Source: the human T2T-CHM13v2.0 reference genome, Homo sapiens. From it: a DNA stretch of 64,000 nucleotides. The notes below the pieces were generated by a model that made no database searches, had not been told where the DNA came from, and saw only the letters and a program-made list of their open reading frames with translations. Each line of letters opens with the position of its first letter. Positions within the stretch are counted from its first letter, which is position 1. The position numbers and the translations under genes are program-made. Below are positions 22,842 to 42,766 of the stretch, in pieces. The stretch is taken from NCBI RefSeq assembly GCF_009914755.1, contig NC_060927.1, one strand, 5' to 3'.

Positions 22842-23442
<601 letters not shown>

Positions 23443-23694
23443 TGAAATTGTTCTTCTTGATAAATATGAATTGCAATTATTCAATAATGATTTCATACCT
23501 GTTGGTATTAGGCTGTCAACTCCAAGGCCAATTCTGAGCTTTAGAGATGAATGAGTATCATTCATCACAGGAATCTAGAATAGGAAATCTTAATAGTATG
23601 ATTTTTTTCTAGGAAATTAAATTTCTATTCATAATCTTGAACATAGAAACCTATATTTATGTTATTCTAATATACGGTCTTTTTTTCCTCTCAG

Positions 23695-26181
23695 GATGGT
23701 ACAAAACAGAAGAGGGAACGGAAAAAGACAGTCTCATTCAGCAGCATGCCAACAGAGAAGAAGATCAGCAGTGCAAGTGATTGTATTAATTCAATGGTTG
23801 AGGGTTCAGAACTCAAAAAGGTTCGCTCCAACTCTAGAATTTATCATAGGTACTTTCTACTGGATGCTGACATGCAGAGCCTAAGGTGGGAGCCATCTAA
23901 GAAGGATTCTGAGAAAGCCAAGATTGACATTAAATCCATCAAGGAAGTGAGAACAGGAAAAAACACAGACATATTCCGCAGCAATGGCATTTCTGACCAG
24001 ATATCTGAAGATTGTGCGTTTTCCGTCATATATGGAGAGAATTATGAGTCACTGGATTTGGTTGCCAACTCCGCAGATGTTGCAAACATCTGGGTTACAG
24101 GACTGCGGTACCTAATTTCTTATGGAAAACATACACTTGATATGTTAGAAAGTAGCCAAGATAACATGAGGACTTCTTGGGTTTCACAAATGTTTAGTGA
24201 AATTGATGTAGATAACCTTGGACATATAACTCTGTGTAATGCTGTGCAATGTATCAGAAACCTCAATCCTGGTTTAAAAACGAGCAAAATTGAGCTTAAG
24301 TTCAAAGAATTGCATAAATCAAAGGACAAAGCTGGTACCGAGGTCACAAAGGAAGAATTTATTGAGGTTTTTCATGAGCTTTGTACTAGACCTGAAATTT
24401 ATTTCCTTTTAGTTCAGTTTTCAAGCAATAAAGAATTCCTTGATACCAAGGACCTTATGATGTTTCTTGAGGCAGAACAGGGTGTGGCACATATAAATGA
24501 GGAAATAAGCCTTGAAATTATTCACAAATATGAACCATCCAAAGAGGGTCAGGAAAAGGGCTGGCTCTCCATAGACGGGTTCACTAATTACCTTATGTCA
24601 CCTGACTGTTATATATTCGATCCAGAACATAAGAAGGTCTGTCAGGATATGAAGCAACCTCTGTCTCATTACTTTATAAACTCATCTCATAATACATACT
24701 TAATAGAGGATCAGTTCCGAGGTCCCTCCGACATCACAGGATATATTCGAGCTCTTAAAATGGGTTGCCGGAGTGTTGAATTAGATGTATGGGATGGGCC
24801 GGACAATGAACCTGTAATTTACACAGGCCACACCATGACCTCTCAGATAGTTTTCCGCAGTGTCATTGATATTATTAACAAGTATGCATTCTTTGCTTCA
24901 GAGTATCCTCTTATCTTGTGTTTAGAAAACCACTGTTCCATTAAACAACAGAAGGTAATGGTTCAGCACATGAAGAAACTTTTAGGAGACAAGCTCTATA
25001 CAACATCACCCAATGTTGAGGAATCTTATCTACCATCCCCAGATGTCCTGAAAGGGAAAATACTAATTAAAGCAAAGAAGCTGTCCTCAAATTGCTCTGG
25101 GGTAGAAGGAGATGTTACTGACGAAGATGAAGGAGCAGAAATGTCTCAGAGGATGGGAAAAGAGAACATGGAGCAACCCAATAATGTGCCTGTGAAGCGA
25201 TTTCAGCTTTGTAAAGAACTGTCTGAACTGGTCAGCATCTGCAAATCAGTTCAGTTCAAAGAATTTCAGGTGTCGTTTCAGGTTCAGAAGTACTGGGAAG
25301 TCTGTTCCTTTAATGAAGTGCTTGCCAGCAAGTACGCCAATGAAAATCCAGGGGACTTTGTAAATTACAACAAACGTTTTCTTGCTAGGGTTTTTCCCAG
25401 TCCAATGAGAATTGATTCCAGTAACATGAATCCTCAAGATTTTTGGAAATGTGGTTGCCAAATTGTAGCCATGAACTTTCAGACACCAGGACTGATGATG
25501 GACCTGAATATTGGCTGGTTTAGGCAGAATGGAAACTGTGGCTATGTCCTCCGGCCAGCCATCATGAGGGAGGAGGTCTCCTTCTTCAGCGCCAATACAA
25601 AAGACTCTGTCCCAGGGGTCTCACCTCAACTTCTTCACATTAAAATCATCAGTGGGCAGAACTTTCCCAAGCCCAAAGGATCAGGTGCCAAAGGTGATGT
25701 GGTAGATCCTTATGTCTATGTTGAAATCCATGGAATCCCTGCTGATTGTGCAGAACAAAGGACAAAAACAGTGCACCAGAATGGAGACGCTCCCATTTTT
25801 GATGAAAGCTTTGAATTTCAAATCAACCTGCCTGAACTGGCCATGGTGCGCTTTGTAGTGCTGGATGATGACTACATTGGGGATGAATTCATCGGCCAGT
25901 ACACAATTCCCTTTGAATGTTTACAGACGGGCTACCGCCATGTCCCCCTGCAGTCCTTAACTGGAGAGGTCCTTGCACATGCTTCTTTATTTGTCCACGT
26001 GGCTATTACTAACCGAAGAGGAGGAGGGAAGCCTCATAAAAGGGGCCTTTCTGTGAGAAAAGGGAAGAAATCCAGGGAATATGCATCTTTGAGAACACTG
26101 TGGATTAAAACCGTGGATGAGGTATTCAAGAATGCCCAGCCCCCTATACGGGATGCCACAGATCTGAGAGAAAACATGCAG
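23695..26181 (+). CDS. PLCL2: PLCL2 giant internal coding exon (exon 2): RVxF motif, PH, EF-hands, PLC X and Y boxes, C2 domain; catalytically inactive PLC-like protein
   Basis: Acceptor tcttttttttcctctcAG|GAT at 23694/23695 and donor CAG|GTGCGT at 26181/26182. Length 2487 nt = 829 codons, phase 0-0. Translates as [17 protein letters not shown], then the listed ORF from MPTEKK to RENMQ. Hallmarks: [63 protein letters not shown]2 [10 protein letters not shown]. Confidence 0.97.
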
Positions 26182-27304
26182 GTGCGTGCTTGTGTTTAAT
26201 CATTTACTCAATGGTTTTCCTACTTTGTACATGTCCATAGTTTATAAATATATTGGTTTTTTAATAATAGTATATTTAAGTAGTTTTTAAATTCTGATTA
26301 GTTCTTAGAATGTTTGCCACTAGTCTGTTTTTTATCATTTAACTTCCTAAAGGTACAGTTGATGTTGAAAATATTGATTACATATTGGGATAAGTGAGTC
26401 TCGTTGCTGTGTTACACACCTTCATCCCAGTCCCTGTTAATGACTGCTGAACAGTTCCTTGTTTTTTTCTAATAGTATACATGGGAATCTCTGGGATTTC
26501 TGAATATTCCTTACCTGGAACACAAATTGATGATCTATCAAAATAAAAAGGATATAGGTCAAAGTAAAATGGATGTGATCCAGTCCTTTCTTACGAAGCT
26601 GTAATGCTGAGGAGATGGGAAACCTTTAAATGAGCCATAAATATATGTGTATGCATAGTGAGCCTCCTTTTGATTTGAGAGGATAGCTAATTCTGTAAGT
26701 AAAAGAGATGTCTGTATTTATTAGAAGTTTAAGATAATAATTACCTCTGAAATATATAATGGCTAAAAGCAGTCAGTTAGGAATTACATATTTAATTAAG
26801 GATCGCCCACACATCTAGCCATACGCTAGGACCCCTGAGTGACACAGAGCTAGACAGCAAGGGCCTGCCTCATGCAGACAGCAGCCCTAACCTGTCATAG
26901 TGTGTGAGAAGTGGTGTGTGTGTGATAAGTGCTCCATGTCTGTTTATTTTGTATTTTAAAAATTATATTTTAAAATGACCAATGAGAATGATGCCAACAA
27001 ATAAAATCTGACTGAGAAAATTCAACGTTTTTTCCCTATCAACTAATTCTATGTGTACTTCGTGAATAAAAGACCTTCCCACAATAAGGAAATTTGTTTT
27101 CTTTCTCTTAAAGTAAAAGCATAACAGACATATGAAGGGCTTTTCCCTGTTTTTGAGGGTGAAAGTGGTTTGGTAAACCCTCAGCTCTGAGCAAGCGCAT
27201 TGTCCACTGCCCAGTGGCTGCTGTGGTGTGTGTGACACAGAATTCCTTTGAGGATTTGTCAGAGCTCAAGCATTGTCTTTTCCAAAGCCTCATCTGCACT
27301 GAAC

Positions 27305-27550
27305 CTGACAAAGCAGTCGGTAGTGATACTGAATGAGCACCTGCCATGCACAAGCAATCTAGGCCATGAAGATGCAGTGGTGAACAAACAGATTGACTGC
27401 CTGCCTTTAAGGGGCTTGCATGCTAGTTGGGGGCAGGCAGTGGGAAGGGGAAACAGACAGGAGGCAGGCAGATAAACAAATAGAACAACTGCAGGTATGA
27501 GTAAGTGGTGTAATAAGAGTGACTGGGGAACTGCACTTTAAATATCACAG
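27305..27550 (-). mobile_element. L2 fragment
   Basis: gaatgagcacctgccatgc...gatgcagtggtgaacaaacag. Confidence 0.6.
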
Positions 27551-27854
27551 TCATGATTGATTTCTGTAACTGTCAATATCAAAGTGATTTGAGCCAATGA
27601 TCTATAGTTTGATGTCCATATTTAAAGCAATATTAATAAAAATGAAATGTTTAAATTTAAAACTAAAGTGTTCATTCCCAAGAACCTGCATTATTTGAGA
27701 GCAGAAGGCACAGGCCTGCAGGGCCTAGGTCCACCCCCTCTGCCCGCATGCCCGGCCTAGACCAGGACCCAAGTGTGCCTGAAATAGCCCACCTGACTCT
27801 TATTATGATTATAATTGGCCTGTTATTACTCACGGTGACTCAAAGCATGGGCCT

Positions 27855-28045
27855 TAACATCAGCAGCTTTCAGGTAAAATCTTGACTCCTTCACTTACTA
27901 GCTGTGTGACGCTAGACAAACAGAGAAGGATTATAGCTAAGGCTCAGTCTTCTCATCCATAACATGGCTTGCTGTGTGGATTAAATGGAAGTAATGTGTA
28001 ATAAATATGCCTAGTATGGCTTAGCACTTAGTAAGTGTTCATAGA
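27855..28045 (+). mobile_element. MIR SINE fragment
   Basis: cacttactagctgtgtgac...ctcagtcttctcatc...ggattaaatg...tagtaagtgttca. Confidence 0.7.
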
Positions 28046-28728
28046 AGGCCAGCTCATGGCATTTTATAGTGTTGAAGGTTTTTCTTTAATGGGTATTTAA
28101 ATGGCATATCTCTGGTGATTAGAAAAAAGAGAGAGAGAGGCATTGGGATCAGCAGTGACACTAATAGGGGAAGGTCACAGGTAACCAAGGTCCCTGCTGG
28201 GCAGACTCAACAGAGAACAGTAGCATCCTCAAAGGTTCTTTAGATTTTGAGCCAGCAGGCATAAATAGATGAGAGATTCAGGTTTCTACCTTGCAAATAT
28301 TTCTTTCCCTTTTGTATGGCTGGCATATTTGATACTTATTTTAAATCTGATTTGATTTTTTTTTCTCCTAAATCTTTACCCTCTTTGAATGCAGAAGCTA
28401 TTCGCTCTGTTTGCTCATAGTTGCATATCCGCATCAGCACTACTATGAACTTTGGGCTGAAAAGAAGCCTTGCCCTTCAGAAGAATTTGACTTATTTGCA
28501 TTTTCAGTACTTTTGATAAATTGGTGTTACAAATGTCCATAACAGCATTTACTTTGGATAACAGCCATTTTTCCCAGGATAAAACAATCATTAGCCAATT
28601 CTGTTATAACACTGTTAATAACTTTTGTACCAGGTGGTTCAAGCATAATCAGATATATCAAATATAATATCCATGAGAAAGTAAAACCCCCAGTTAATTA
28701 CAAATGCTCCTTTCATTCCATTTAACAG

Positions 28729-28932
28729 AATGCGGTGGTGTCATTCAAGGAGCTGTGTGGCCTCTCCTCTGTGGCCAATCTCATGCAGTGCATGTTGGCG
28801 GTGTCTCCCCGCTTTCTGGGGCCCGATAACACACCCCTAGTGGTCCTAAATCTCAGCGAGCAGTACCCCACAATGGAGCTGCAGGGAATTGTGCCGGAGG
28901 TTCTGAAGAAGATCGTAACAACTTATGACATG
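28729..28932 (+). CDS. PLCL2: PLCL2 coding exon 3 ([12 protein letters not shown]...KKIVTTYDM)
   Basis: Acceptor tttcattccatttaacAG|AAT and donor ATG|GTGAGT. 204 nt, phase 0-0, in frame with the preceding exon; overlaps listed ORF 28735..28983. Confidence 0.95.
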
Positions 28933-29924
28933 GTGAGTTGTCCTTTGTCCGTTTACATAGCCTGGGTGAGAGAGATATCCTAAGACAACACAGCAGACAT
29001 ACTTTGGAGCTTTTGCTGAAGTGCACTTTCCTATTTCATGCTTCATTCACCTATGCTGGAGAAGTAATTCCCCTGACCTTGCTGTATTTGAAAGAGATTA
29101 GTGTTTTGTTGTTTTTGAAAGCAGAATTCAGAGACACTCACCTCAGTTGGATTAAACATTAGTTAGCTTCTCAGCTATATCTGAATTGATTTTTAAAGGA
29201 TGCACTATTTTCCACACAGATGTAGGAACGAGTTTTTAAAAATCTTCTCCTGCAGCCAGTCATTGATTATTTGTTTTCATTTTATTTTCATTTTTTCAAC
29301 TGGTAAAGGCAAGAAATTTAACTTAAAAATGTAATGCCATGAGGGACAGGTGCCTGTATCACATGACTCTGCACTAGGCTATGGTTTCCCTTCTTACAGG
29401 AGCTGCTCTGTGATACTTGTATTTGTAATGAGCTTAACACTAATGGGGTATCCTCAGGACACCTAGAATATTACATTTTTCTACTTAAGATTTACCTTGC
29501 ATTTTCTTAATCACATCCTGCTCTTACTGTAATTTTTTTATTTATCATAACTCTAAGAGAGAATTTATTGGGTGAAGGACACCCATTTCAAGTGTATGAT
29601 GTAGTTGAAGCTGTCATTGACTCTTCAACCTATCAGGGTTAAGGGTTGGTGTTGGACACTCCCCTCCCAGATGGGCCAGTCTGTCTTCAGTACTATTTAG
29701 AGTACTTGGGGGTGAGTACCTCATCTGCTACCTCCTCCACTCCAAAAGCACAAGCTAAGACCACGAAACTCTAGGTTTCTTCTGATGTAGCTTGCTGTGC
29801 TCAAGGACAAAACAGGATCGGCATCATAAACATAAACAGAAATATTTTTGACTGTTTCATAAGTTGTCTGAAAGCTGTAATTTAGAGGGATTTATGCAAT
29901 TCAAGGGAAAGAAAAAAGACGTTG

Positions 29925-30240
29925 GGCCAGCACTTCTCAATTGTGACTACTTCGTAGGTTTCTTAGGATGTTAGTAAATATCACATAGGGGAAGGGTTTC
30001 ATAGGATGTTAGTAAATATCACATGGGGGGAAAGTTCCTTGACTAAATAATTTTGGGAAATACTAGTTTGAACAAAAGTAATCAGATATCTTTACTGCAG
30101 GATTTCTTAGAACCTTTTATTTGCTATCACCATGAGTTCCAAGATAGTGATAGAGTATTTCCAGTTTCACAAATTGACTTGACCATTGGAATACTATTTC
30201 TAAAAACAAAGATTCTAGAGAATATATTTTGGAAAATCCT
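29925..30240. mobile_element. hAT-Charlie-type DNA transposon fossil containing a 38-bp tandem duplication
   Basis: cagcacttctcaa...tttgggaaatact...tttactgcaggatttcttagaacc; the duplication spans 29957-30032. Confidence 0.5.
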
Positions 30241-32854
30241 TCTTCAGTCTTTGGATGAATAAGTCTAGAAGTACAAGTCAGAAGAATGCAGTGTTTTAAA
30301 CAGCTTATGAGTTCATTACCTTAAAAAAAGTGATATTTGTGCATTTTGTAGATTCCTATGAAGTAGTCACACATTGTAGTGGGGGCTGTTTCCTTCTTAG
30401 CATTCATGGTAACCTTAAGAGACACCAGGAACTGAATATTGGACACTGCAAGCAAACTACATAGAGTGGCACCCTCCTGCAGAGAGGAGGGAGGCCAGGG
30501 TCAGGTGTCTGATGAGCCTCAGGTGCTGAGTGCCACTGTGCTGAGTGCCAAAGGGGTCCACAAAGACTCATATGAACAGCCCCATCCTCGGGGAGCCATC
30601 AAGTCCACCAGGAGAGAAAGTGAGGCTGGGGACCAACATCAACACAGGAAGCATGCTGAGATTCCTTTGGTGGGGAAATAGAAGAAGGGGTAAAAATGGA
30701 AAAGTCTGAAGATCTTTTACATGCTATGAACCAGACTGCCTAAATAGTTCTTGACTTAAGTTTTATGAGATGAAGCCAAAAAAGTATCTGATATTTATAA
30801 ACGCTTTTTAAGCATAAGCCACAAATAAAATCACATACCTGTTTCATTGACCAAAATCTAATATGATTTACCCCCTAAGACATTTGCTTGATTTCTATGA
30901 CAGTCATACAGTGACATTTCTTCATGGCGAGCTTTTTAACAGGGACTTCTTGAGGGTGGGGTGGTAGTACCCCGTGGAGGTGATAACAGCATAACAGGGC
31001 AGGCCAAGTTCAGGGGCTGATTTCTGCTCTATCAAGAGTGTGTGATCATAGCTGGTTTCTCATGGTCTATGTTAAAAATCCTCATGGCCACCAGCAACCT
31101 TTATGGCACTCATAGCAATATTCGGCTCAGGAATGGCTCATTGCTCCTTGGTTCCCTGCCTCTTCCTCTTGGATTGGTAGATGCTAGCTCTTAATATGTA
31201 ACTCTTATTTGCGTCTAACTGTATCATTATGTTGTTATAGATTTGGCAAGACAGAATATGCTAGCTTGCTTAAAATTTTTAAATTATAAAATTACTCTTT
31301 TATAATGTATAATTGAAATAGCTGTGCAGCCTTATACTGCCTAATTTATCGATATGTTCTGTTAATTCCATCTGATAAAATAAGCTAATAAAATATTTAA
31401 AATTAAATTTAAATTATGGCTGCAGCAATATTATAACTCTTGTAATATTTTGCAGTTCTTTTTAGTGACTTAATGGTTTCTTACCTTGTGACAATTTATT
31501 AAAGCTAGCCAGAATAGATTAAATATTGATGGGAAATGTACTAAAGGTCTCGGACAGCCCGTAACTCTAAATATAGCTCTTTATTTTTGTAATGTTATGT
31601 TGAGCTTGCCCCAAAATTAACCTTAGAAATAAGATCTTATTTCATTCTGTTGACTTCCCATGTATAATGTATGGAGGCGAATGAGAAGTAAAGGCAAGTT
31701 GAGAAACTCCTCCAGAACTCCTGTGTCATGGCCAGTCTACATGCCTAAAGTGTGTCTTCCTGTGAGGACAGTGCCATGGTACCTCCTAAAATGTACAGAT
31801 GTGTATTTATGCTATCAAGATTGTGATTACTTTTCAATATCTAGACTGTATTAATAGTATTTCAGAAGTGTGCTAGTTTCTTTGTGAAAACGGAGAATGC
31901 AGATCGTTGTCCTAATGGCTGCCGTGATTACTACCAACAAACAGGCCTTGAAAACTGCCAGAATTGTGCTTTTACAGGACTTGTGGTGCTCTCGTGGCTC
32001 CTGTGGTGGGGTGAGCCTGGGACCTAGCTCAAGAAGACAGGTATCAGAGCCATTCAGGAGTGGAGAAGAAGAGAAATTCACACACCTCCTTAGACTAGGC
32101 AGATTAAGGGAGTTTTAGTAGGAACTGGACTGGGATGGAAAGTGGGAATGACCCTATTAGCAGTGCTGGAGTCAGAGACATGAGTGTGGGATAGAAGGCA
32201 CCTGCTGAACTTGTGCCTGGAGGCCTGGGGCACACAGATGACCCTTCTTCCTCCCAATGGTGAGCAAGGGCCCTAGAGTCCTCTCCTGCTAGAACCTAGA
32301 GCACAAAAGCTGCACATAGCAACCCTAGGTAGGGAAATTGTAGCAGGGCTGGAAGGGGGCCTCATGCAAATGGAGGCTTACAGGGCATTTAAATGAGGCG
32401 TCTTTGTCCCCTTAAGCTCAGTGTCCTTAAGTACTTCATCCCATGATTTTGGGGCTCAACCTGTGAGGGCTCATCTTCCTCCAGTCAGCTTGTCCTCTCT
32501 GCCTCTCTTAATGGAAGTGACCCTTGAGTCCCTTTTTTCATACCTATCTACTTTTTTTCAACAGATGGGGCCTGGGCTCCATTATTAAGCCATGTGGTTG
32601 GGCTTTTGCCCACAACCCCTTATTTATTGCATTGGACAGCATACATGATTATATCATACATCATGACCATAAAGTCAGAGGGTCAAACTTTTGAACCAAA
32701 TAATTGATTTGCTTTAAAGATGTCACATTTGGTTGTTTTGAAGTGGCATATAATAGAAATTTAATTGGTTTATTTCAATAAAACAGATACAAAATAAGTT
32801 ACTGTATTTTTGGTGATGAATTCAACACCCATTTATAAGCTCTTAGCATGTGCA

Positions 32855-40609: not shown

Positions 40610-40903
<294 letters not shown>

Positions 40904-42481: not shown

Positions 42482-42766
42482 CTTTTTTTTTTCTTTTTTT
42501 TTTTGAGACAGGGTTTCACTCCTGTCACCCAGGCTGGATTGCAGTGACGAACTGTTGACTCACTGCAGCCTCTGCCTCCTGGGCTCAAACAATTCTCCTG
42601 CCTCAGCCTCCTGAGTAGTTGGGACTACAGGCACGCACCAGCATGCCCGGCTCATTTTGTTGTTTTGTTTTTTTGCAGAGGTGGGGTTTTGCCATGTTGC
42701 TCAGGCTGGTCTTGAACTTCTGAGCTCAAACAATCCACTCACCTCAGCCTCCCAAAGTGCTGGGAA
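42482..42766 (-). mobile_element. AluJ-type element, slightly 5'-truncated
   Basis: Poly-T followed by gagacagggtttcactc...cccaaagtgctggga. Confidence 0.92.

What the first reader, a model, noticed from the sequence alone, without database searches (positions are those of the whole stretch)
23695..28932. Exons 2+3 could form a circRNA with an endless ORF and a Kozak AUG created at the back-splice junction
Seen: both exons are phase 0-0, and 2487+204 = 2691 nt = 897 codons with no stop. Exon 3 ends GAC ATG and exon 2 begins GAT GGT. Back-splicing would give GAC-AUG-G (purine at -3, G at +4), whereas linear splicing to exon 4 gives GAC-AUG-A. Exon 2 alone (829 codons) would also circularise without a stop. 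The pair sits between a >23 kb and a 28 kb intron. Established: long flanking introns favour back-splicing, stop-free 3n circles can undergo rolling-circle translation, and long internal exons tend to be m6A-rich. Inference: the circle could encode tandem RVxF-PH-EF-X-Y-C2 units, i.e. a multivalent IP3/PP1 scaffold. I recall a PLCL2 exon 2-3 circRNA being catalogued but cannot verify this here. Caveat: any block of symmetric-phase exons gives a stop-free circle, so the frame alone is weak evidence.
Basis: partly seen in the sequence, partly recalled or inferred. Interest (0 to 1): 0.8.

Follow-up and report, generated by a model that had tools for sequence, protein, structure and literature searches.

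The report
Known PLCL2 circular RNA, coding unproven
The two PLCL2 exons do form a circular RNA that is already catalogued (hsa_circ_0001274), but its stop-free reading frame is an ordinary by-product of exon lengths and nothing found here shows that it is translated.

Summary
The sequence observation is correct. Exon 2 (2487 nt) and exon 3 (204 nt) are both phase 0-0. Joined, they give 897 stop-free codons and the junction reads GAC-AUG|G.

This circle is circBase hsa_circ_0001274 (hg19 chr3:17051165-17056403, 5238 nt genomic, 2691 nt spliced). It has 34 back-splice reads in 26 samples, 18 of them from brain. One paper studies it as a miR-143-3p sponge.

The coding argument is weak:
- The ATG lies wholly in exon 3. 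The junction supplies only the +4 G.
- It is one of 29 in-frame ATGs, 8 of which have the same context.
- The Met is present in only 39 of 103 aligned vertebrate PLCL2 proteins, and PLCL1 has CTG there.
- PLCL1 has the same symmetric exon pair (2475 + 204 nt), so the endless frame is inherited gene structure.
- About 14% of human circRNAs have a host-frame rolling-circle ORF.
- A proteome survey of back-splice peptides lists no PLCL2 entry and no junction peptide.

One MeRIP-circRNA-seq screen names the circle as a candidate, which is the only hint of m6A.

Verdict: a real, known circRNA whose rolling-circle translation is untested and unlikely.

The parts
23695..26181 (+). PLCL2 coding exon 2, 2487 nt, phase 0-0. 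It encodes KKTVSF, PH, EF-hand-like, X, Y and C2. Its first base G becomes +4 of the junction AUG.
28729..28932 (+). PLCL2 coding exon 3, 204 nt, phase 0-0, 68 codons, no Pfam family. It ends GAC ATG.
23693..23694 (+). AG acceptor of exon 2, the back-splice acceptor of hsa_circ_0001274.
   Evidence: Catalogue coordinates chr3:17051165-17056403 span 5238 nt, which equals 23695-28932.
28933..28934 (+). GT donor of exon 3, the back-splice donor of hsa_circ_0001274.
28930..28932 (+). Last codon of exon 3, ATG. This is the 'junction AUG', and it lies wholly within exon 3.
   Evidence: Met in 39 of 103 aligned orthologues. CTG in PLCL1.
26182..28728 (+). Intron 2, 2547 nt, assumed to be spliced out of the circle. 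It has no repeat match to either flanking intron.
   Evidence: The spliced length of 2691 in the catalogues is derived from annotation.
22855..23441 (-). Two tandem Alu elements, ending 254 nt upstream of exon 2.
   Evidence: Sub-threshold Metazoa_SRP matches on the minus strand. BLAST pairs.
40621..40896 (+). Alu in intron 3, inverted relative to the upstream Alus and 11,689 nt downstream of exon 3. It is the candidate pairing partner for back-splicing.
   Evidence: 79.9% identity over 288 nt, minus-strand match to 23005-23291. Metazoa_SRP match on the plus strand.
42490..42765 (-). Alu in intron 3, inverted relative to the 40.6 kb Alu and about 1.6 kb from it. This within-intron pair would compete with pairing across the exons.
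24682..24689 (+). The only 8-mer site (TCATCTCA) for the miR-143-3p seed in the circle.
   Evidence: The sponge claim is in PMC9904904.
28906..28911 (+). AAGAAG hexamer 19 nt upstream of the terminal ATG. The same hexamer acted as an IRES-like element in circPFAS. It is one of 5 copies in the circle, against 2.56 expected.

Best explanation
Window 23695-28932 holds PLCL2 coding exons 2 and 3. The donor of exon 3 is back-spliced to the acceptor of exon 2, which yields the already catalogued 2691-nt exonic circRNA hsa_circ_0001274.

Back-splicing is plausibly helped by the very long flanking introns and by an inverted Alu pair. One partner ends 254 nt upstream of exon 2. The other lies 11.7 kb into intron 3.

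The stop-free 897-codon frame is an arithmetic by-product of two symmetric phase-0 exons. This exon structure predates the PLCL1/PLCL2 duplication. The terminal ATG is an ordinary, poorly conserved Met codon.

The circle is most likely a moderately expressed, brain-enriched splicing product that is not translated to any meaningful extent. Its only published role is as a microRNA sponge.

Shown here or in print: the sequence facts, the existence of the circle, and its RNase R resistance as reported. Inferred: the role of the Alus and the lack of translation.
For: - Frame and junction.
- Identity with hsa_circ_0001274: Zheng 2016 Supplementary Data 1 has the row chr3:17051165-17056403|+, 5238/2691, PLCL2, 34 unique back-splice reads over 26 samples, with brain at 13 and 5. 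For scale, circHIPK3 has 866. The Maass 2017 supplement gives the same coordinates with the circBase ID, in 4 of its tissues and 7 circBase samples.
- The overexpression insert of PMC9904904 begins with the first bases of exon 2. Its cell length of 2697 characters fits 2691 nt plus the 5'- and 3'- labels. That paper reports RNase R resistance.
- Inverted Alus.
- PLCL1 has the same layout: a 2475-nt exon and a 204-nt exon, both phase 0-0.
- 14% of human circRNAs have a host-frame rolling-circle ORF (passages of PMC9242994).
- The terminal Met is present in 39 of 103 orthologue rows that carry a residue there. 120 proteins were fetched and 110 aligned.
- No PLCL2 entry, coordinates or junction peptide appear in the 4 readable supplementary files of PMC9242994. 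File 4 lists back-splice peptides with coordinates and host genes.
Against: [quoted passage not shown]
- An AAGAAG hexamer, functional as an IRES-like element in circPFAS, lies 19 nt upstream of the terminal ATG.
- Fan et al. report that rolling-circle ORFs are over-represented among circles with mass-spectrometry support.
- A mouse Plcl2 circle (mmu_circRNA_19191) was ranked among the top predicted coding circRNAs in mdx muscle. I saw this only through a review (PMC12657405), and its exon content is unknown to me.
- The proteome negative is weak. The data come from cell lines, not from brain or B cells.
- No Ribo-seq data could be examined. The one riboCIRC supplementary file held is only 20 kb.
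Confidence: 0.8

Rival explanations
1. hsa_circ_0001274 is translated in rolling-circle fashion, preferentially from the junction AUG, into concatemers of the RVxF-PH-EF-X-Y-C2 unit that act as a multivalent IP3/PP1 scaffold.
For: - The circle exists and is stop-free in a 3n length.
- The junction context is GACAUGG.
- There is an m6A hint and an AAGAAG hexamer upstream of the AUG.
- Endogenous rolling-circle translation has been demonstrated for circPSAP, circPFAS and circABHD12.
Against: - The AUG is not junction-made, is one of 8 equally good in-frame AUGs, and is outnumbered by 46 out-of-frame AUGs.
- It is not conserved: 39 of 103 orthologue rows, with echidna, squamates and frogs differing, and CTG in PLCL1.
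- No junction peptide or PLCL2 entry appears in the Fan et al. data.
- One round would be 102 kDa against 10.5-22.4 kDa for the validated cases. The products of two of those three cases were rapidly degraded by the proteasome.
- Abundance is modest.
Confidence: 0.03
2. The circle is translated at a low level from some internal AUG, through m6A or IRES-like elements, but not processively. Ribosome drop-off or frameshifting would yield roughly one round, giving an N- and C-terminally truncated PRIP-2 core protein rather than concatemers.
For: - Same as above for the open frame and the m6A hint.
- Fan et al. saw mainly single-round product for circPSAP, which they attribute to low processivity.
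- Frameshift-terminated rolling translation is described for circ-EGFR. This detail is recalled. Only the term rtEGFR was seen, in the listing.
Against: No direct evidence of any translation. Such a product would be nearly indistinguishable from fragments of the linear protein.
Confidence: 0.07
3. The published model. circ_0001274 is a non-coding competing endogenous RNA that binds miR-143-3p and thereby raises VWF in endothelial cells and blood.
For: PMC9904904 reports luciferase, pull-down, RIP and FISH data and lower levels in trauma-coagulopathy blood (passages only). One canonical 8-mer seed site exists at 24682-24689.
Against: - There is only one 8-mer site in 2691 nt, and read counts are modest, which makes stoichiometric sponging doubtful.
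- The shRNA of that study targets 28856-28875 inside exon 3, so it would also hit linear PLCL2 mRNA.
- The paper never names PLCL2 (0 occurrences).
Confidence: 0.15

Closest known systems
hsa_circ_0001274 (circBase), called circ_0001274 in PMC9904904
   Same: It is identical: hg19 chr3:17051165-17056403, plus strand, 5238 nt genomic, 2691 nt spliced, host PLCL2. The published insert starts with the first bases of exon 2.
   Different: Nothing differs in sequence. The literature treats it as non-coding. No paper found here discusses its stop-free frame or its translation. The relevant searches were made, which cover main texts only.
hsa_circ_0001275, the 'circPLCL2' of the human literature
   Same: It comes from the same locus, is named after the same host gene and has the adjacent circBase number. 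Several array studies report it.
   Different: It is a 249-nt antisense circle at window 32024-32272 on the minus strand, inside intron 3, with its own AG/GT sites on that strand. It contains no PLCL2 exon and has nothing to do with the exon 2-3 frame.
Endogenous rolling-circle-ORF circRNAs: circPSAP, circPFAS and circABHD12 (Fan et al. 2022, PMC9242994), and circ-EGFR/rtEGFR
   Same: They are exonic circles of 3n length without a stop in the host frame. An AAGAAG element is present, as in circPFAS.
   Different: Those have junction peptides in mass spectrometry and tagged-reporter ladders, with 10.5-22.4 kDa per round. The PLCL2 circle has neither, and one round would be 102 kDa. Details for rtEGFR are recalled. 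Only the term was seen, in the listing.
PLCL1 exons 2-3, the paralogue on chromosome 2
   Same: It has a giant exon (2475 nt) plus a 204-nt exon, both phase 0-0. Its exon 2 also starts with GAT and carries KKTVSF. It would also give a stop-free circle, of 893 codons.
   Different: Its 204-nt exon ends GAT CTG (Leu), not ATG. I did not look for a PLCL1 circle in the catalogues.

Membership tests
Exonic circRNA made by back-splicing | Reads across the head-to-tail junction in RNA-seq | tested here: met
   Literature supplements: 34 unique reads in 26 samples. Four tissue rows plus 7 circBase samples. No raw reads were examined here.
Exonic circRNA made by back-splicing | Canonical AG acceptor and GT donor at the two ends | tested here: met
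   AG at 23693-23694 and GT at 28933-28934.
Exonic circRNA made by back-splicing | Resistance to RNase R | not testable with these tools
   Reported in PMC9904904 (passage). The figure was not seen.
Exonic circRNA made by back-splicing | Long flanking introns with reverse-complementary repeats across the circularised exons (usual, not obligatory) | tested here: met
   Introns are >23.7 kb and 27,955 nt. The inverted Alu pair 23005-23291 / 40621-40896 shows 79.9% identity over 288 nt. A competing pair lies within intron 3.
Rolling-circle-ORF (rcORF) circRNA, as defined in PMC9242994 | A start codon and no stop codon in one frame of the circle | tested here: met
   2691 nt = 3 x 897, 0 stops, 29 in-frame ATGs.
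Translated rcORF circRNA | Peptide or ribosome footprint across the back-splice junction | tested here: inconclusive
   Zero hits for PLCL2, the coordinates or the junction peptide in the 4 readable supplementary files of PMC9242994. Zero hits in the single 20-kb riboCIRC file. No brain or B-cell data were examined.
Translated rcORF circRNA | Concatemeric protein products from the circle | not testable with these tools
   Needs a tagged back-splicing reporter or a western blot with a junction-specific knock-down.
AUG circRNA, meaning a circle that contains the host gene's annotated start codon (family recalled, from no call) | The annotated start codon lies inside the circle | tested here: not met
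   Exon 2 is coding from its first base and the host frame enters it open. This follows from the annotation supplied with the finding and from the 100% coverage of the 829 aa by orthologues. The start codon is in exon 1, outside the window.

The most novel reading that the evidence does not exclude
hsa_circ_0001274 is m6A-marked and, in brain or B cells, is translated without termination into an N- and C-terminally truncated PRIP-2 core or short concatemers of it. Such a product would keep PP1 and IP3 binding but lack the regulatory ends, making it a circle-encoded dominant modulator of PRIP-2 signalling. The junction AUG need not be the start site.
Probability: 0.04. Interest if true: 0.6.

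Novelty: already known. Interest (0 to 1): 0.2.

Why it matters
If translated, this would be by far the largest endogenous rolling-circle unit known, at 102 kDa per round. It would encode a complete multi-domain signalling core, which would be of real interest for circRNA coding capacity and PRIP-2 biology.

As it stands, the circle is a known circBase entry. Its endless frame follows from exon arithmetic that the paralogue shares. The junction AUG carries no sign of selection.

Two things here are useful in practice:
- 'circPLCL2' in the human literature means a different, antisense, intronic circle (hsa_circ_0001275).
- The only functional study of the exon 2-3 circle used a knock-down reagent that also matches the linear mRNA.

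Tried and rejected
1. I searched paper main texts for hg19 coordinates of the circle. The first numbers were extrapolated from the antisense circle and were 5 nt off. The corrected numbers also gave nothing. Both searches returned only unrelated DOIs and numbers. The coordinates appear only in supplements and, with typos, in one table.

2. I searched for 'circPLCL2'. The 2 of 2 papers refer to hsa_circ_0001275 or to the mouse circle, not to exons 2-3.

3. Of the PLCL2 + circRNA hits (12 papers) and the PLCL2 + 'circular RNA' hits (20 papers), I opened 9. All 9 concerned hsa_circ_0001275, mouse circles, or PLCL2 as an mRNA. The rest I saw as listings only.

4. The riboCIRC paper's supplement holds one 20-kb file with no PLCL2. 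This is uninformative, because the database itself is not held.

5. An exon-2-only circle: no row ends at the hg19 position of the exon 2 end in Maass 2017 (0 occurrences). One of the 5 PLCL2 rows there shares the exon 2 acceptor but ends elsewhere, and I did not see its end. The Zheng file is cut in storage, so its absence there means nothing.

6. DRACH enrichment: 59 observed against 53.4 +/- 5.5 in 500 codon shuffles. It is not enriched.

8. The primary mouse paper (Song et al. 2020) was not opened. I did not try to fetch it. Its claim is cited only through a review.
Full report
**Observation**

- PLCL2 exon 2 is 23695-26181: 2487 nt, 829 codons, no stop in frame 0, against 44 and 74 stops in the other two frames.
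- Exon 3 is 28729-28932: 204 nt, 68 codons, no stop.
- Together they make 2691 nt, or 897 stop-free codons.
- Both exons have canonical splice sites.
- Exon 3 ends GAC ATG and exon 2 begins GAT GGT. A back-splice therefore reads GAC AUG|G, whereas the linear exon 3-4 junction reads GAC AUG|A.
- Intron 3 is 27,955 nt, and the upstream intron exceeds the 23,694 nt visible in the window.
- Pfam places PH (residues 28-141), EF-hand-like (227-310), X (319-462), Y (509-622) and C2 (646-746) all in exon 2. Exon 3 matches nothing.
- The RVxF-like KKTVSF sits at residues 10-15. That this motif binds PP1 is recalled knowledge about PRIP proteins and was not tested here.

**Is it more than chance?**

No.
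- The ATG is not created by the junction. It lies entirely in exon 3 and is an ordinary Met codon of the linear protein. Only the +4 base differs.
- It is one of 29 in-frame ATGs in the circle. Eight of them have a purine at -3 and G at +4.
- A further 46 ATGs are out of frame, opening ORFs of at most 65 aa.
- Any block of coding exons of 3n length is stop-free in the host frame.
- In the survey of Fan et al. 2022 (PMC9242994, passages read), 14% of human circRNAs have a host-frame rolling-circle ORF. The ratio of finite to rolling ORFs is about 3.4.

**Does the circle exist?**

Yes, and it is already catalogued.
- Supplementary Data 1 of Zheng et al. 2016 (PMC4823868) has the row chr3:17051165-17056403|+, genomic length 5238, spliced length 2691, PLCL2. 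It records 34 unique back-splice reads over 26 samples: brain 13 and 5, kidney normal tissue 4, the others 2 or fewer.
- For scale, circHIPK3 has 866 reads in the same table.
- The row lies near part 15 of a table sorted by reads. I estimate that as roughly the thousandth row.
- 5238 nt is exactly 23695-28932.
- The supplement of Maass et al. 2017 (PMC5660143) gives the same coordinates under the circBase name hsa_circ_0001274. It is found in adipose, LCL, right atrium and WAS2, and in the circBase samples cd_19, A549, Bj, Gm12878, H1hesc, Helas3 and Huvec.
- The spliced length in these tables is inferred from annotation, so removal of intron 2 from the circle is assumed rather than shown.

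**What is in print about it**

- A search for the ID found 8 papers. I opened two of them.
- PMC9904904 (passages and supplement) treats circ_0001274 as a miR-143-3p sponge that raises VWF, and reports RNase R resistance.
- Its overexpression insert begins with the first bases of exon 2 and has the right length. It is therefore this circle, although the paper never names PLCL2.
- The circle has one 8-mer seed site, at 24682-24689.
- The shRNA of that study targets 28856-28875 inside exon 3, so it is not specific to the circle.
[quoted passage not shown] That paper then pursued a different one. This is the only hint of m6A on the circle.
- The name 'circPLCL2' in human papers means something else. 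hsa_circ_0001275 is a 249-nt antisense circle that I located at window 32024-32272 on the minus strand, in intron 3.
- A mouse Plcl2 circle was ranked as potentially coding, by ORF and m6A-motif prediction, in mdx muscle. I saw this only through a review.

**Biogenesis**

- Two tandem Alus on the minus strand end 254 nt upstream of exon 2 (22855-23441).
- An Alu on the plus strand lies at 40621-40896 in intron 3 and is their reverse complement, at 79.9% identity over 288 nt.
- A further minus-strand Alu at 42490-42765 forms a closer, competing inverted pair within intron 3.
- Intron 2 shares no repeat with either flank. This fits the absence of an exon-2-only circle in the Maass tables.

**Tests of the coding idea**

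Conservation:
- PLCL1 on chromosome 2 has the same layout, a 2475-nt exon and a 204-nt exon, both phase 0-0. The endless frame is therefore inherited gene structure. Its 204-nt exon ends in CTG.
- Of 120 vertebrate PLCL2 proteins fetched, 110 aligned over the exon 3-4 region and 103 carry a residue at the last codon of exon 3.
- That residue is Met in 39. It is Thr in 25, Leu in 11, Val in 10, Ser in 7, Ala in 7, Ile in 2 and Gln in 2.
- Echidna, squamates and frogs lack the Met.
- Placental mammals are almost absent from this set, because the database is clustered at 90% identity.

Translation evidence:
- The four readable supplementary files of Fan et al. contain no PLCL2, neither coordinate and no junction peptide.
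- These files include the table of 2721 spectra over 990 back-splice junctions, which gives coordinates and host genes.
- Their search space drew on circBase, and circBase lists the circle in HeLa S3.
- The proteomes are from cell lines, so this is a weak negative.

Sequence features:
- DRACH motifs are not enriched: 59 against 53.4 +/- 5.5.
- AAGAAG, an IRES-like hexamer that is functional in circPFAS, occurs 5 times against 2.56 expected. One copy is 19 nt before the terminal ATG. This is suggestive at most.

Size and stability:
- One round of translation would give 102.0 kDa.
- The validated rolling-circle cases give 10.5-22.4 kDa per round.
- The products of two of those three cases (circPSAP, circPFAS) were quickly degraded by the proteasome. 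The circABHD12 product looked relatively stable.

**Verdict**

However, the circle is already known. Its open frame is ordinary and shared with the paralogue. The junction AUG shows no sign of selection. No evidence of translation was found.

I put about 0.8 on a real circRNA whose stop-free frame is incidental. I put about 0.03 on the rolling-circle scaffold model and about 0.07 on low-level, non-processive translation. The published sponge role is compatible with the main reading, but it rests on one seed site and a non-specific knock-down.

**Not seen**
- circBase, circAtlas, TransCirc and riboCIRC themselves.
- Any raw RNA-seq, Ribo-seq or proteome data.
- PDF supplements.
- The primary mouse paper.

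Noticed in passing
window 32024-32272, minus strand: hsa_circ_0001275, the 'circPLCL2' of several array studies, maps here. It is 249 nt, antisense to PLCL2 and inside intron 3, with AG and GT sites on the minus strand. The annotation supplied with the finding lists no minus-strand gene at this place, so the parent transcript of this much-cited circle is unannotated.
   Followed up: partly
window 28856-28875: The shRNA used against circ_0001274 in PMC9904904 matches the interior of exon 3, not the back-splice junction. It should also knock down linear PLCL2 mRNA.
   Followed up: yes
window 28933-32023: The hg19-to-window offset derived from the exon 2-3 circle (17,027,471) differs by 5 from the offset derived from the antisense circle (17,027,476). 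T2T-CHM13 therefore appears to be 5 nt shorter than hg19 somewhere in this stretch of intron 3.
   Followed up: no
proteins P0002, P0004, P0007, P0018: Predicted 'isoform X2/X3' PLCL2 proteins of three birds and a lizard lack the segment that corresponds to exon 3 and resume at the exon 4 sequence. This suggests the symmetric 204-nt exon is a skipped cassette exon in some models.
   Followed up: no
PMC13059625, Table 2: That table prints hsa_circ_0001274 as chr10 with spliced length 2601. The start, end and genomic length match the chr3 PLCL2 circle, whose spliced length is 2691, so these look like typos.
   Followed up: yes
PMC5660143 supplement: Five rows start at the exon 2 acceptor (17051165) but only four end at the exon 3 donor. 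At least one further circle uses the same acceptor with a different, unseen end.
   Followed up: no
window 23044-23171, 40730-40857, 42526-42653: There are sub-threshold Rfam matches to mir-1268 and mir-3135 inside the Alu elements. They look like Alu-derived similarity rather than miRNA genes.
   Followed up: no
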